DNA of 64,000 bases from positions 28,472 to 92,471 of the IMG/VR virus record IMGVR_UViG_3300020045_004291, one strand, 5' to 3'. This document shows positions 1-43,292 of this stretch, piece after piece. The notes below the pieces were generated by a model. That model did no database searches, was not told the DNA's origin, and saw only the letters and a list, made by a program, of their open reading frames with translations. How positions within the stretch are numbered: the stretch's first letter is position 1; each line of letters begins with the position of its first letter. The position numbers and the translations under genes were made by a program. Source of the stretch: a virus.

Positions 1-44
1 CTTGTCGTTCCAATGATCTTCGCCGCTCTCATTATCTTATTTGC

Positions 45-440
45 GTTTCGGCTGGACTTTCACCCATGGTAGCTTACATGGCACGTCATAATGATCGTAT
101 CGCCCCGCCCCAGCCAATGGGTTCCTAAAGGCGGGAATTAGACAAAGCCGTCTGCCGGACGTAAAGCGGCTAAGTTTCGCGCTTCGGCGCACATAAGTTT
201 AGCTAGCGACCACCCCAGTCCGAAAATGGGGCCGCCAACGTAATCAGGGATTATGGGGCGCTGGCTAATAAGTTTGATCTGCGGTGCAAAACTTCCCCTG
301 CGCCTGTCTTTCGCCAGGATTAACACAGAGGATGAACCTAAGCGTAATGGCGAGGTTTCGCAGATCAAAACCAATCCCGCAAGGGTAGAGGGGCGACCTT
401 CCGAAAGACCTCAGCCGTTTCCCTCCGGCTGGGGTTTTTT
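45..440 (+). ncRNA. Large structured non-coding RNA (copy A), family unassigned
   Basis: 11-bp helix 273-283/359-369; long-range TCGCCCC 100-106/GGGGCGA 390-396; UUCG (179-190) and GCAA (376-385) tetraloop hairpins; ends in an intrinsic terminator; conserved in copy B with structure-preserving changes. Confidence 0.8.
408..440 (+). terminator. Rho-independent terminator ending ncRNA copy A
   Basis: CCTCAGCCG-N8-CGGCTGGGG followed by T6. Confidence 0.85.
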
Positions 441-504
441 GTGTCTTAAACCATATATTTAGATTTCTGATCTATTGTGGTTCTCATAGAAGAGGGAAAA
501 TTCT

Positions 505-1098
505 ATGAGATATCCAAACGCCGTTGGTGCAATCAACATCATTAATGTCAGCCTGTTAATCGCCCTGGGGATCGCCGTCACGGCACCAACTGTGCAGCCT
601 GACCAGTTTGTTACCTATGCCCCGCCGCCCGCCTTGGAGGTCGTATGGCCCACGCGTGAATTGATCGTGTATCCAGAGGTTGCCACCGTTTCAGGCGTTG
701 ACCTAATTAAACGCTTTGAAGGGCTGCGCTTGAAAGCGTATAAGTGCACGGCAAAACGCTGGACTATTGGTTATGGCCGCGCATATGGCGTCAAATCCGG
801 TCAGGTGATCACACAGGCCGAAGCTGACCGCATGTTGTCGGTTGACTACGCCAAAACAAAAAGCGCCGTCCTGAGTGCTGTAAAGGCCGATATCAGCGAT
901 CAACAAATAGAGGTATTGGTGTCGTTCGCGTATAACGTGGGGATTACGCGGTTCAAAGAATCCACTATGTTAAAAATGATCAATGCCGGTGACATGCGCG
1001 GCGCTCGCGATCAGTTCAGGTTCTGGATTCACGTTGACGGCCAGCCTATCGACGGCCTGATTAACCGCCGTGCAGAAGAGGCGGCGTTGTTTATTTAG
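505..1098 (+). CDS. GH24 phage lysozyme with N-terminal hydrophobic anchor and Pro-rich linker, antisense to the late operon
   Basis: IKRFEGLRLKAYKC..WTIGYG (E-x8-C-x5-T), SFAYNVG, GLINRRAEE motifs; GAGGG RBS. Confidence 0.9.
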   Translation: MRYPNAVGAINIINVSLLIALGIAVTAPTVQPDQFVTYAPPPALEVVWPTRELIVYPEVATVSGVDLIKRFEGLRLKAYKCTAKRWTIGYGRAYGVKSGQVITQAEADRMLSVDYAKTKSAVLSAVKADISDQQIEVLVSFAYNVGITRFKESTMLKMINAGDMRGARDQFRFWIHVDGQPIDGLINRRAEEAALFI

Positions 1099-2367: not shown

Positions 2368-2614
2368 GAGTGATCACCTTGGCTTTTTCGCGGACGACTT
2401 TCACGCGGTCGATATATTTGGTGTCAATGACGATTGAAGCTTGCGCATTTATCAGCGATGTCTTAGCGGACGCCAGTTCACCCCCAAGGCGGGCTATATC
2501 TGCCTTCTGAGCGGCAATAACCTTTTCCTTGGCGTCAAGCTTCATATTGACGATAATGACGGTGCCAGCCAGCGTAAAGGCCGCAAGGGCTATAGCGAAT
2601 GTTTCCAGCTTCAT
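2264..2614 (-). CDS. i-spanin (Rz-like)
   Basis: N-terminal TM plus coiled coil, directly after the endolysin; start taken at MKLETF. Confidence 0.75.
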   Translation of the reverse strand: MKLETFAIALAAFTLAGTVIIVNMKLDAKEKVIAAQKADIARLGGELASAKTSLINAQASIVIDTKYIDRVKVVREKAKVITHEIPVPSKCEDIGVTYNAWLAGLDELRGETPTQP

Positions 2615-3090
2615 GAGACACCTTTCAGGCAAAGGTTACGCTCTGCGTTACGTCTGTTTAACAGGCCTTGCACGGGCTTTCCACCGGCAAAGCGCCACGC
2701 TAAGAACGCATCGCACCCGCCCTTGATGTCGCCAGCGTCAAACCTACGATCGACAGTCGATTTGCAATAGGCTTGCGTGCCGATGTTATAGGCTAGAGAA
2801 GTGGCTGCGGCTAAAACTTCGGGCTTGGATGCAATGGACGGCGTACACGCCATAACGGGTTTCATGTAGCGTTCACTGACGGCCTTTTTCAGCATGGCCT
2901 CGCACTCAGCGTCGGTATAATGGCGCATTTCGACTTGCGTTTCACCAAAGCACACAGTTTTTACATTGACGATATCAAAATATGGGTCGTTAATTTTCCC
3001 TTCCCACGGCATAATGACGCCAAGCGCAAGCGCCATTGCAGATCCGCCAATGAGTGCGGTTTGTGCCTTTGGTGGTATATTAAGCCGCAT
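2611..3090 (-). CDS. SAR-type endolysin (GH24)
   Basis: Gly/Ala-rich N-terminal TM followed by WEG..PYFDIVNVKTVCFGET, AYNIG, GLLNRR. Confidence 0.9.
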   Translation of the reverse strand: MRLNIPPKAQTALIGGSAMALALGVIMPWEGKINDPYFDIVNVKTVCFGETQVEMRHYTDAECEAMLKKAVSERYMKPVMACTPSIASKPEVLAAATSLAYNIGTQAYCKSTVDRRFDAGDIKGGCDAFLAWRFAGGKPVQGLLNRRNAERNLCLKGVS

Positions 3091-41649: not shown

Positions 41650-41882
41650 TCAATTTCATCAAACGCCTGTTTGGCAAGAATGCACCAGTCGTGGCAGAAA
41701 AGACCGCCGAGCAGAAGCTTACGGACTTTCGAGACCTTTATGTCAGCCATGACCCCATAGCTGACAACCTCAAAGACAAGATCGCCCAGGCCAAGCGCAA
41801 CAAAAAGCGCTATAGCCACCTTGAGGCGCAACTACGCGACCACATGACAGCAAAGCTTTTAAAAGCGGACGGATTCAAATGA
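41646..41882 (+). CDS. Early hypothetical protein
   Basis: AAGGAG RBS, coupled. Confidence 0.6.
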   Translation: MINFIKRLFGKNAPVVAEKTAEQKLTDFRDLYVSHDPIADNLKDKIAQAKRNKKRYSHLEAQLRDHMTAKLLKADGFK

Positions 41883-42007
41883 TTGATAACATAATACACA
41901 TAAGCATGGCTGTAATCCTAATGGGCGCAGCCGCATTAATTGTTGGTGCGGTGGTTTTTCTTTCGATTGTTGCGTTCAGCTTTTTGCGTGACTTTTTCCG
42001 CTTGTAG
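41879..42007 (+). CDS. 42-aa single-TM peptide; missing from the ORF track
   Basis: ATGA coupling; MIDNIIHISMAVILMGAAALIVGAVVFLSIVAF... Confidence 0.5.
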   Translation: MIDNIIHISMAVILMGAAALIVGAVVFLSIVAFSFLRDFFRL

Positions 42008-42041: not shown

Positions 42042-42447
42042 GTTTCGGCTGGACTTTCACCCATGGTAGCTTACATGGCACGTCATAATGATCGTATCGC
42101 CCCGCCCCAGCCAATGGGTTCCTAAGGCGGGAATTAGACAAAGCCGTCTGCCGGACGTAAAGCGGCCAAGTTTCGCCAGAGATGGCCTGTAAGGGAAATA
42201 AAATGTCAGAAGAGATCCACCCCAGTCCAAAAATGGGGTCGCCAACGTAATCAGGGATTATGGGGCGCTGGCTAATAAGTTTGATCTGCGGGCTTTTCAC
42301 GTCCCCTGCACCTGTCGTTCGTCAGGATTAACACAGAGGATGAACCTAAGCGTAATGGCGAGGTTACGCAGATCAAAACCATCCCGCAAGGGTAGAGGGG
42401 CGACCTTCCGAAAGACCCTAGCCGTTTCCCTCCGGCTGGGGTTTTTT
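42042..42447 (+). ncRNA. Large structured non-coding RNA (copy B)
   Basis: Same helices as copy A; UUCG hairpin replaced by GCCA-GAGA-TGGC (42175-42186); terminator 42416-42447. Confidence 0.8.
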
Positions 42448-42511
42448 GTGTCTTAAACCATATATTTAGATTTCTGATCTATTGTGGCTTTCATAGAAGA
42501 GGGAAAATTCT

Positions 42512-43105
42512 ATGAGATATCCGAACGCCGTTGGCGCAATCAACATCATTAACGTCAGCCTGTTAATCGCCCTGGGGATCGCCGTCACGGCACCAACTGT
42601 GCAGCCTGACCAGTTTGTTACCTATGCCCCGCCACCCGCCTTGGAGGTCATATGGCCCAAGCGCGAATTGATCGTGTATCCAGAGGTTGCCACAGTTTCG
42701 GGCATTGACTTGATTAAACGCTTTGAGGGGCTGCGCTTGAAGGCATATAAATGCACGGCAAAACGCTGGACGATTGGTTATGGCCGCGCATATGGCGTAA
42801 AATCCGGTCAGGTGATCACACAGGCCGATGCTGATCGCATGTTGTCGGTTGACTACGCCAAAACAAAAAGCGCCGTCCTGAGTGCTGTAAAGGCCGATAT
42901 CAGCGATCAGCAAATAGAGGTGTTGGTGTCTTTCGCGTATAACGTGGGGATTACGCGGTTCAAAGAATCCACCATGTTAAAAATGATCAACGCCGGTGAC
43001 CTGCGTGGCGCGCGCGATCAATTCAGGTTTTGGATTCACGTAGACGGCCAGCCTATCGACGGCCTGATTAACCGCCGTGCAGAAGAGGCCGCGTTGTTTA
43101 TTTAG
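42512..43105 (+). CDS. GH24 membrane-anchored lysozyme (copy B)
   Basis: 5 conservative substitutions relative to 505-1098. Confidence 0.9.
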   Translation: MRYPNAVGAINIINVSLLIALGIAVTAPTVQPDQFVTYAPPPALEVIWPKRELIVYPEVATVSGIDLIKRFEGLRLKAYKCTAKRWTIGYGRAYGVKSGQVITQADADRMLSVDYAKTKSAVLSAVKADISDQQIEVLVSFAYNVGITRFKESTMLKMINAGDLRGARDQFRFWIHVDGQPIDGLINRRAEEAALFI

Positions 43106-43292
43106 CCAGTCCGAAAAACGTCTTTATCTGGGCTGCGAAGATTCCGAACAGAACGCCAATGGTAGCAGCGCCACCAAGCACAAACTTCTGCCATGAAACC
43201 AGATCGTCAATCTTCTTCTGATGTGTCGCCTGCCAAGCCTTTAGGTCGTCCACATCTTTTTTTAATAGCGCAATCTGCGTTTCCGGCGTCAC
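43098..43292 (-). CDS. Coiled-coil plus TM protein (copy B)
   Basis: Identical protein to 1091-1285. Confidence 0.65.
   Translation of the reverse strand: MTPETQIALLKKDVDDLKAWQATHQKKIDDLVSWQKFVLGGAATIGVLFGIFAAQIKTFFGLAK

What the first reader, a model, noticed from the sequence alone, without database searches (positions are those of the whole stretch)
45..440. Unassigned ~400-nt highly structured phage ncRNA, supported by variation between its two copies
Seen in sequence: the segment recurs at 42042-42447 and no reading frame survives in both copies. It contains a perfect 11-bp helix (TTTGATCTGCG 273-283 / CGCAGATCAAA 359-369), a long-range closing helix (TCGCCCC 100-106 / GGGGCGA 390-396), a CCC-GCAA-GGG GNRA hairpin, several short stems and a terminator. 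The differences between copies preserve structure. GCGC-UUCG-GCGC (179-190) becomes GCCA-GAGA-UGGC (42175-42186), a different stem with another stable tetraloop. The loop-region AGTCCG (217-222) becomes AGTCCA, and both can pair with TGGACT (53-58) as a pseudoknot. The terminator stem swaps G-C and G-U pairs. Known: phages encode large ornate RNAs of unclear function (GOLLD, ROOL). Inference: this is an independently transcribed large RNA, possibly a new class; I cannot assign it to a family by eye.
Basis: partly seen in the sequence, partly recalled or inferred. Interest (0 to 1): 0.88.

Follow-up and report, generated by a model that had tools for sequence, protein, structure and literature searches.

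The report
Orphan structured RNA before phage lysozyme
A roughly 400-base gene-free stretch of an uncultured aquatic phage probably makes a folded RNA that ends in a strong transcription stop just before a second, tightly locked lysozyme gene, but it has no known relatives, so its structure and role cannot yet be proven.

Summary
The segment is non-coding, matches no Rfam family, and ends in a strong plus-strand intrinsic terminator 65 nt before a membrane-anchored GH24 lysozyme.

The supporting argument is weaker than claimed.
- The "two copies" are the same locus in two sibling phage genomes joined head to tail in one metagenome contig.
- These genomes are mosaics. 7.7% of all 134-nt windows are as near-identical as the RNA's 5' part, so identity alone does not show selection.
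- Without the terminator the body folds only modestly better than shuffles (z about -2).
- RNAalifold finds no compensatory pair.
- The proposed UUCG-to-GAGA hairpin swap is not the preferred fold in copy B.

One helix does covary. The strand 166-172 pairs with different partners in the two copies: U-A becomes C-G, and two G-U/G-C exchanges occur. This is unlikely by chance and specific to the plus strand.

No promoter-like site, no homologue outside this contig and no RNA data were found.

Verdict: a plausible orphan structured RNA (about 0.6). It most likely acts as the terminal, terminator-bearing element of the rightward operon, gating the lysozyme. Independent transcription and "new class" remain untested.

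The parts
45..406 (+). Body of the candidate structured RNA, unit A. It is a closed multi-helix fold with nested long-range helices 46-51/401-406, 100-106/390-396, 131-136/375-380, 154-158/261-265 and 273-283/359-369.
   Evidence: RNAfold and RNAalifold. z is -2.1 without the terminator. No conserved ORF. No Rfam hit.
166..207 (+). Variable hairpin 'P-var', unit A. The 5' strand 166-172 pairs with 200-207 and is capped by GCGC-UUCG-GCGC (179-190). The unit B counterpart is 42162-42190.
   Evidence: The same 5' strand pairs with different 3' strands in A and B. There is one double change (U171-A201 to C-G), two G-U/G-C exchanges, and the 1-nt bulge is kept. Block shuffles reproduce the helix in 8.3% (A) and 2.75% (B) of trials.
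273..369 (+). Domain closed by the perfect 11-bp helix 273-283/359-369. Its 5' inner part (284-293) differs between the units.
   Evidence: I3; z -2.9/-2.8; 1.5% of shuffles reach 11 bp.
408..440 (+). Intrinsic terminator, unit A: stem 408-416/425-433, 8-nt loop, U6 tract.
   Evidence: z about -3. The TC-to-CT change in unit B keeps all pairs by shifting a G-U. The only, sub-threshold, Rfam resemblance is to the terminator hairpin of NsiR1.
441..511 (+). Spacer and translation-initiation hairpin of the lysozyme gene. The 10-bp stem 483-492/502-511 holds the Shine-Dalgarno GAGGG in its loop and the ATG (505) in its 3' arm.
   Evidence: (I7). In unit B a C-to-U change keeps the pair as G-U.
505..1098 (+). 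Membrane-anchored GH24 lysozyme, the gene directly downstream. It is a second lysozyme besides the minus-strand endolysin at 2611-3090.
   Evidence: Pfam PF00959 with E 3e-40. PHROG endolysin.
42042..42413 (+). Body of the candidate RNA, unit B (orthologous copy).
42415..42447 (+). Intrinsic terminator, unit B.
41879..42007 (+). 42-aa single-pass membrane ORF that ends the upstream gene string, unit B. The unit A counterpart lies just before the window, at L001 1229-1357.
   Evidence: It was called as a gene in the public collection.
42512..43105 (+). Lysozyme gene, unit B. It is 94.6% identical at the nucleotide level to unit A, with 27 of 32 differences at third codon positions.

Best explanation
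The stretch is a real plus-strand structured RNA of no described family.

Proposed mechanism:
- It is transcribed as the last, non-coding part of the rightward operon (replication and accessory genes, ending with the 141-aa, 76-aa and 42-aa ORFs).
- It folds into a closed domain of about 360 nt and ends at a strong, constitutive intrinsic terminator.
- Its main effect is in cis. The terminator closes the operon and insulates the next gene, a second, membrane-anchored lysozyme.
- That gene is also locked at translation by a 10-bp hairpin over its start codon.
- The folded body would stabilise the 3' end of the transcript and could be the docking site for a factor that allows read-through late in infection.

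Shown: non-coding status; the terminator; the plus-strand-specific covarying helix; the start-codon hairpin; the absence of recognisable promoters.

Inferred: co-transcription with the operon, efficient termination, and any regulated read-through.
For: - Non-coding. No ORF is shared by the copies. None was called by public gene callers, while the neighbouring 42-aa ORF was. No Pfam, PHROG or translated similarity.
- Strand. Folding z is -2.8/-2.6 on the plus strand, against -1.45/-1.35 on the minus strand and -1.5 to +0.6 for coding controls. G-U pairs occur in P-var and in the terminator.
- Covariation in P-var. U171-A201 becomes C-G, G168.U204 becomes G-C, and G166-C207 becomes G.U, with the same bulge. 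Shuffled blocks give this helix in 2.75% (B) and 8.3% (A) of trials.
- The terminator change TC to CT keeps all pairs.
- AGUCCG to AGUCCA keeps complementarity to UGGACU 53-58.
- Isolated point differences sit at positions of low pairing probability. The mean is about 0.32 against 0.60 overall, worked out by hand.
- Both single-base indels (127 and 373) lie within 4 nt of the two strands of helix 131-136/375-380.
- No promoter-like site was found upstream of the RNA or between the terminator and the lysozyme.
- The lysozyme ATG lies in a 10-bp stem that is conserved through a C-to-U (G-U) change.
- The terminator hairpin forms in both alternative 3' folds, so it looks constitutive.
Against: - Only two closely related sequences exist. 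RNAalifold finds no double compensatory change. All long-range helices are invariant, so they are untested.
- The body folds only modestly better than shuffles (z -2.1/-1.9).
- Near-identity is not evidence of selection here. 7.7% of all 134-nt windows between the two units have 2 or fewer differences. Counting the replaced blocks, the region is about as divergent as its flanks.
- No terminator/antiterminator alternative was found.
- The RNA body shows no special complementarity to the lysozyme start region.
- The 5' end is undefined. Copy A carries about 110 extra nt, and a 27-aa ORF runs into positions 45-71.
Confidence: 0.4

Rival explanations
1. The same folded RNA is a stand-alone, trans-acting stable ncRNA. 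This is the kind of thing GOLLD and ROOL are thought to be. It would be made from its own weak or factor-dependent promoter, or cut out of the operon transcript like a 3'-UTR-derived sRNA. Its position next to the lysozyme would be incidental.
For: - The closed fold, with 5' and 3' parts paired and directly followed by a terminator, is the usual build of stable RNAs.
- Peripheral hairpins vary between the copies while the core is fixed.
- An exposed 11-nt loop (217-227) can form a pseudoknot or a kissing contact.
- A candidate TTGTAG-17-TAGTCT lies in the 28-nt block shared by both copies just after the 42-aa ORF.
- A CATAAT at 87-92 would place a start near 100, the 5' strand of the closing helix (my reading).
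Against: - No promoter reaches the scan's threshold in either copy.
- The two candidate promoters match the consensus poorly.
- The sequence directly upstream of 45 is not conserved.
- No target complementarity beyond chance. The 12-mer shared with 1099-1110 is within the number of such matches expected, and the unit B change would break that pairing.
- No homologues in other phages.
Confidence: 0.25
2. There is no functional RNA body. The stretch is a mosaic-junction spacer left by recombination, duplication and deletion between gene modules. Only the terminator and the lysozyme start hairpin are functional. The other helices are chance, and the identity reflects recent exchange between the sibling phages.
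For: - The two units are mosaics with many near-identical tracts in coding DNA too.
- The homology starts abruptly at 45, next to a 110-nt insertion or deletion.
- Positions 45-71 look like the tail of a decayed duplicate of the 42-aa membrane ORF (E 7e-4).
- The body z is only about -2.
- An 11-bp inverted repeat within 100 nt is expected about once per 64 kb by chance (my estimate).
- No homologues anywhere.
Against: - Compensatory and compatible changes are concentrated in P-var.
- Folding is asymmetric between strands.
- The two replaced blocks coincide with a hairpin and a linker rather than cutting through core helices.
- Roughly 360 nt of junk would have been kept in both siblings of an otherwise tightly packed genome.
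Confidence: 0.25
3. It is a DNA-level site, such as binding sites for a regulator, a replication element or a packaging element, rather than an RNA.
For: - Inverted repeats occur in the fully identical 5' part (64-68/77-81 and 83-88/92-98).
- The region is non-coding and retained in both units.
Against: - No iterons or repeated motifs.
- Helices need G-U pairs and are therefore strand-specific.
- The changes in P-var preserve RNA pairing, not a DNA motif.
- Another reader places the origin and the promoter cassette elsewhere in the genome (note e1-6037081, unchecked).
Confidence: 0.05
4. It hides small peptide genes. Candidates are the 50-54-aa or 27-aa ORFs entering positions 45-128 in unit A, the 20-aa ORF 66-128, and a 15-aa ORF with a good Shine-Dalgarno in unit B only (42203-42250).
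For: - AGGTGG lies 9 nt before an ATG in the unit A insert.
- AAGGGA lies 6 nt before the ATG in unit B.
- The 27-aa ORF is hydrophobic and resembles the 42-aa ORF.
Against: - None of these ORFs with a ribosome-binding site exists in both units.
- They cover under a third of the stretch.
- Frame-shifting indels lie between the copies.
Confidence: 0.05

Closest known systems
GOLLD and ROOL large ornate RNAs of phages and prophages (Rfam families; cryo-EM structures in bioRxiv 10.1101/2024.12.08.627333)
   Same: It is phage-borne, non-coding and several hundred nucleotides long. It has many helices, including long-range ones, and its function is unknown.
   Different: - No covariance-model match even at E up to 10.
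- It is about 360 nt, against roughly 600-800 nt (sizes from my own knowledge).
- It is not next to tRNA genes.
- It is known from one phage lineage only, so there is no family-level covariation.
Lambda-type late leader (PR' - 6S RNA - tR' upstream of the lysis genes, read through by Q); established knowledge
   Same: A non-coding transcribed stretch ends at an intrinsic terminator directly upstream of a cell-wall-degrading gene. Expression of that gene would need read-through.
   Different: - No promoter-like site and no recognisable Q-type antiterminator upstream.
- It is about twice as long and far more folded than 6S.
- The gene behind it is a second lysozyme at the end of the replication arm. 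The full lysis cassette sits on the other strand.
Transcription-attenuating leaders and riboswitches (a closed aptamer domain followed by a terminator)
   Same: A closed multi-helix domain has its outer helix 3' strand abutting a terminator, in front of a single gene that also has a structured start region.
   Different: - No match to any riboswitch or leader family.
- No mutually exclusive antiterminator was found, and the terminator forms in both alternative 3' folds.
- It is larger than almost all known aptamers.
Processive antitermination RNAs (HK022 put, EAR); established knowledge
   Same: An RNA element within a phage or operon transcript sits upstream of a terminator and could act on the transcribing polymerase.
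   Different: - Those elements are about 70-120 nt with defined two-stem architectures.
- There is no Rfam match here.
- This element lies at the end of an operon, not near its promoter.

Membership tests
Any Rfam 15 family (including GOLLD, ROOL, HEARO, OLE, raiA, riboswitches, ribozymes, group I/II introns) | Covariance-model score at or above the family's gathering threshold | tested here: not met
   There were 0 matches at gathering over the whole window. At E up to 10 on each copy and on the unit A insert there were only chance-level hits. The best was NsiR1, 21 bits against a threshold of 39, over the terminator hairpin.
Bacterial RNase P RNA | Match to RNaseP_bact_a, with conserved P4 sequences | tested here: not met
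   RF00010 was searched in the whole contig at E up to 10 with 0 matches, while the control genomes scored.
tmRNA / tRNA-like | tRNA-like acceptor domain and tag reading frame | tested here: not met
   ARAGORN found no tRNA or tmRNA in the window. No Rfam match.
Group I or group II intron | Interrupts a host gene whose exons join in frame, and has a catalytic core recognised by the models | tested here: not met
   The flanking ORFs are complete: the 42-aa ORF has its stop, and the lysozyme has its own Shine-Dalgarno and ATG. There are stops in all frames after 440. There was no intron model hit apart from a 15-bit fragment on the opposite strand.
Riboswitch / attenuator leader | Terminator and a mutually exclusive antiterminator coupled to the sensing domain | tested here: inconclusive
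   The position (5' of one gene, with a terminator 65 nt before the ATG) fits. However, local folding shows the terminator intact in both the local-hairpin fold and the long-range fold. No ligand class can be inferred.
Lambda-type late leader with Q antitermination | Constitutive promoter at its 5' end and a Q-family antiterminator gene upstream | tested here: not met
   No promoter-like site. The upstream 141-aa, 76-aa and 42-aa proteins have no Pfam match and no functionally annotated PHROG match; the 76-aa protein has only a weak hit to an unknown-function PHROG. A Q-like function of an unrecognised protein cannot be excluded.
Rho-independent terminator | G+C-rich hairpin followed directly by a U tract on the transcribed strand | tested here: met
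   The 9-bp core stem is 408-416/425-433, RNAfold extends it by further flanking pairs, and UUUUUU follows. Pairing is kept in both copies. The simple scanner missed it, probably because the stem can extend into the U tract.
Independent ncRNA gene | Its own promoter and a discrete transcript | not testable with these tools
   No promoter-like site by consensus scan. No RNA-seq run holding this sequence was listed.

The most novel reading that the evidence does not exclude
This is the founding member of a new class of roughly 360-nt phage RNAs. The fold would be autonomous and pseudoknotted, made at the end of the early operon. It would control, through polymerase read-through or RNA-RNA/protein contacts, when a second, membrane-tethered lysozyme is made. 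That would be an RNA-based lysis or cell-wall-remodelling timer distinct from the holin clock.
Probability: 0.2. Interest if true: 0.75.

Novelty: new variant of a known kind. Interest (0 to 1): 0.42.

Why it matters
Large folded RNAs of phages are few and their roles are unknown. A new one placed exactly between an operon end and a doubly locked lysozyme gene would offer a testable link between RNA structure and the control of cell-wall attack.

As it stands the case rests on two sibling sequences. Its present value is as a defined candidate, with coordinates, a proposed fold and one covarying helix, for model-based searches of viromes and for simple reporter tests.

It also gives a caution. 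In mosaic sibling genomes, near-identity of a non-coding stretch is not evidence of selection.

Tried and rejected
Homologue hunt (all negative):
- blastn against phages and plasmids.
- Exact 19-30-mers from six parts of the RNA in viral contigs and one in metagenome contigs.
- One 20-mer in genome contigs gave a single chance hit in a Bacteroidales MAG with unrelated flanks.
- nhmmer and sensitive blastn against all fetched loci, including Pseudoalteromonas phage H103 and a Manatee Spring phage that share the primase and replication arm.
- BLAST in 12 distant IMG/VR records.

Routes through neighbouring proteins:
- The lysozyme's nearest relative outside the contig is 53% identical.
- Loci with 40%-identical lysozymes have no gap upstream.
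- The portal's best cultured relative, a Microcystis phage at 35%, has no such gap.
- The 141-aa protein has one relative, P0122, on a 35,099-bp JGI contig.
- Spurious ORFs of the region used as translated probes found nothing.

Expression: no RNA holder was listed. The only run was an aquatic DNA metagenome holding a 207-nt identical contig across the terminator and lysozyme start.

Other attempts:
- A single-sequence covariance model of the variable hairpin aligned unit B poorly (12.6 bits), so it gave no usable structural alignment.
- The RNA body shows no special complementarity to the lysozyme start region.
- The 12-mer CCAGTCCGAAAA, shared with the site just after the lysozyme stop, is within chance for all 12-mers of the RNA.
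- The 11-nt tetraloop-receptor look-alikes (CCUAAG and UAUGG) cannot pair as a receptor (my reading).
- The idea that conservation proves purifying selection was dropped.
- Earlier-findings look-ups by sequence found nothing.
- The virome csRNA paper PMC10690425 holds no searchable supplements.

Full report
**What the window is**

The window is bases 28472-92471 of a 92.5-kb IMG/VR virus record. A self-comparison shows that the record holds about 2.3 head-to-tail units of a roughly 40-kb phage genome, and the units are 87-95% identical where they align.

Each unit has two arms:
- Rightward arm: Sak4-like annealing protein, SSB, RecE-like exonuclease, helicase, PAPS-reductase-like protein and small unknown proteins.
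- Leftward arm: primase, terminase, portal, capsid, tail fibres and a lysis cassette with a GH24 endolysin at 2611-3090.

The finding's "two copies" (45-440 and 42042-42447) are therefore the same locus in two sibling genomes, not paralogues. The best cultured relatives are distant. The primase is 55% identical to Pseudoalteromonas phage H103, and the portal is 35% identical to a Microcystis phage. The one sequencing run holding an identical fragment is an aquatic metagenome.

**Checking the observation**

The locus lies between a 42-aa membrane ORF that ends the rightward gene string and a GH24 lysozyme with an N-terminal membrane segment (505-1098; Pfam PF00959, E 3e-40).

The stretch is non-coding:
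- No reading frame is shared by the copies. Only a 26-residue piece of one minus-strand frame is common.
- Public gene callers called nothing here, although they did call the adjacent 42-aa ORF.
- No frame matches Pfam, PHROGs, other parts of the phage or the large protein collection.

Family assignment failed:
- Rfam 15 gives nothing at gathering thresholds.
- At E up to 10 there are only chance-level hits, the best being the terminator hairpin resembling that of NsiR1.
- RNase P is negative at E up to 10.
- ARAGORN finds no tRNA or tmRNA.

**How strong is the structure signal**

With the terminator, the plus strand folds better than dinucleotide shuffles:
- z is -3.45 and -2.36 from the tool.
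- z is -2.8 and -2.6 in my own run, against -1.45 and -1.35 for the minus strand and -1.5 to +0.6 for coding controls.

Much of this comes from the terminator (z about -3 on its own) and from the 11-bp helix. The body 45-406 alone gives z -2.1 and -1.9. A perfect stem of 11 bp or more appears in 1.5% of shuffles. "Highly structured" is therefore too strong. The signal is real but modest.

The predicted fold common to both copies is a set of nested long-range helices:
- 46-51/401-406
- 100-106/390-396
- 131-136/375-380
- 154-158/261-265
- 273-283/359-369

Local hairpins sit between them, followed by the terminator 408-416/425-433 and a U6 tract. All of the long-range helices are identical in both copies, so the comparison says nothing for or against them.

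**Does variation between copies support structure**

RNAalifold on the MAFFT alignment finds 109 pairs. None has a change on both sides. The only one-sided changes are the two in the terminator.

MAFFT misaligns the first replaced block. Folding that sub-region separately in each copy gives a clearer picture. The same 5' strand, G166-A172, closes a hairpin in both copies but pairs with different 3' strands: 200-207 in A and 42183-42190 in B. The changes are:
- U171-A201 becomes C-G, a change on both sides.
- G168.U204 becomes G-C.
- G166-C207 becomes G.U.
- The one-base bulge is kept.

When the variable block is shuffled, a stacked 5-bp helix with this strand appears in 8.3% (A) and 2.75% (B) of trials. 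The full 7-bp form appears in 2% and 0.15%.

This is the best evidence for a selected RNA helix. Its G-U pairs make it specific to the plus strand. In copy B the GCCA-GAGA-UGGC hairpin uses the bases that form this closing helix and is the less stable alternative.

Weaker points in the same direction:
- The loop change AGUCCG to AGUCCA keeps complementarity to UGGACU 53-58 (G-U to A-U).
- The isolated point differences fall at positions of low pairing probability in the fold predicted from copy A alone. The mean is about 0.32 against 0.60 overall (by hand; nine sites only).
- The only two single-base indels lie within 4 nt of the two strands of helix 131-136/375-380.

**A correction on conservation**

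At first sight the RNA looks far more conserved than neutral sites. It has about 3% point differences outside two replaced blocks, against 13.6% at third codon positions of the lysozyme gene.

However, the two units are mosaics. 7.7% of all 134-column windows across the aligned blocks have two or fewer differences, and this includes long coding tracts. Counting the replaced blocks, the region is about as divergent as its flanks. Near-identity here may be a recent exchange tract and cannot be used as proof of purifying selection.

**Ends and transcription**

The 3' end is well defined by the terminator. The 5' end is not.
- Homology between the copies starts abruptly at 45.
- Upstream, copy A carries about 110 extra nt.
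- That insert holds a 27-aa hydrophobic ORF weakly similar to the 42-aa ORF (E 7e-4). This ORF ends at 71, inside the proposed RNA.
- The consensus scan finds no sigma-70-like promoter upstream of the RNA or between the terminator and the lysozyme gene in either copy.
- By eye there are only poor candidates: TTGTAG-17-TAGTCT just after the 42-aa ORF, and CATAAT at 87-92, which would start an RNA near 100.
- No terminator separates the upstream genes from the stretch.

The simplest reading is that the stretch is transcribed as the tail of the rightward operon. No RNA-seq run holding the sequence was listed, so expression could not be examined.

**The 3' region and the downstream gene**

The last 65 nt can fold locally into two GNRA-capped hairpins (376-385 with GCAA, 388-401 with GCGA) plus the terminator. 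Alternatively they can donate their 5' halves to the long-range helices. The terminator hairpin forms either way, so I see no terminator/antiterminator switch.

Downstream, the lysozyme start region forms a perfect 10-bp hairpin (483-492/502-511). The Shine-Dalgarno sequence is in its loop and the ATG is in its stem. In unit B a C-to-U change keeps the pair as G-U.

The lysozyme is a second enzyme. A complete endolysin gene sits on the other strand, which agrees with unchecked notes by other first readers. The gene behind the RNA is thus shut twice, by a strong terminator and by an occluded start codon. I found no special complementarity between the RNA body and that start region.

**What it most likely is**

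I put about 0.6-0.65 on a genuine plus-strand structured RNA.

- Cis role (0.4). I favour this because of the missing promoters, the constitutive terminator and the doubly locked gene behind it. The element would end the rightward operon and gate the lysozyme. Its folded body would protect the 3' end or serve as a platform for a read-through factor.
- Stand-alone trans-acting RNA (0.25). The architecture fits equally well.
- Spacer with no functional body (0.25). A mosaic-junction spacer in which only the terminator and the start hairpin are functional remains a serious rival.
- DNA-level site (0.05) and hidden peptides (0.05) are minor.

**Comparison with what is known**

It resembles GOLLD and ROOL only in kind: phage-borne, large, many helices. 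It is not a member of either family.

It sits where lambda's PR'-6S-tR' leader sits relative to the lysis genes, but it lacks the promoter and a recognisable Q protein.

It is built like a riboswitch leader but shows no switch. It is much larger than put or EAR antitermination RNAs.

**Limits**

No homologue could be retrieved despite searches by DNA pattern, BLAST, profile and neighbouring proteins (see Tried and rejected). The claim of a new RNA class therefore cannot be tested here.

Noticed in passing
whole contig (G000:C1 1-92471); window 1-64000: The record is a head-to-tail tandem of about 2.3 non-identical sibling phage genomes with a period of about 39-42 kb. Identity is mosaic, with tracts near 100% next to unalignable modules. 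It may be a natural concatemer or co-assembly of strain variants.
   Followed up: partly
window 483-511 (unit B 42490-42518): A perfect 10-bp hairpin holds the lysozyme Shine-Dalgarno sequence in its loop and the ATG in its 3' arm. In unit B a C-to-U change keeps the pair as G-U. This looks like a translational lock on a potentially lethal enzyme.
   Followed up: partly
L001 1380-1500 (just before and into window 1-71): Unit A has about 110 extra nt between the 42-aa membrane ORF and the RNA. The insert carries a 27-aa hydrophobic ORF weakly similar to the 42-aa ORF (E 7e-4), and a 50-aa ORF with a good AGGTGG ribosome site that reads into the RNA's first 84 nt. Both are absent from unit B.
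   Followed up: partly
window 215-226 and 1099-1110 (unit B 42222-42233 and 43106-43117): The loop motif CCAGTCCGAAAA of the RNA recurs directly after the lysozyme stop codon in both units. Taken over all 12-mers of the RNA this is within chance, and the unit B loop change is not mirrored at the second site.
   Followed up: yes
window 505-1098 (+) and 2611-3090 (-): Each unit has two GH24 lysozymes. One is membrane-anchored, on the plus strand behind the RNA. The other sits in the minus-strand late lysis cassette. The two converge, and the plus-strand gene abuts the last minus-strand ORF.
   Followed up: partly
window 42203-42250: A 15-codon ORF with AAGGGA 6 nt upstream lies inside the block that only unit B has. 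There is no counterpart in unit A.
   Followed up: no
protein P0122 (JGI contig of 35,099 bp, not retrievable): This is the only relative of the upstream 141-aa protein among 1.84 billion representatives. It is a 109-aa form, 65% identical, with an internal deletion. Its contig is the best place to look for a third copy of the RNA.
   Followed up: partly
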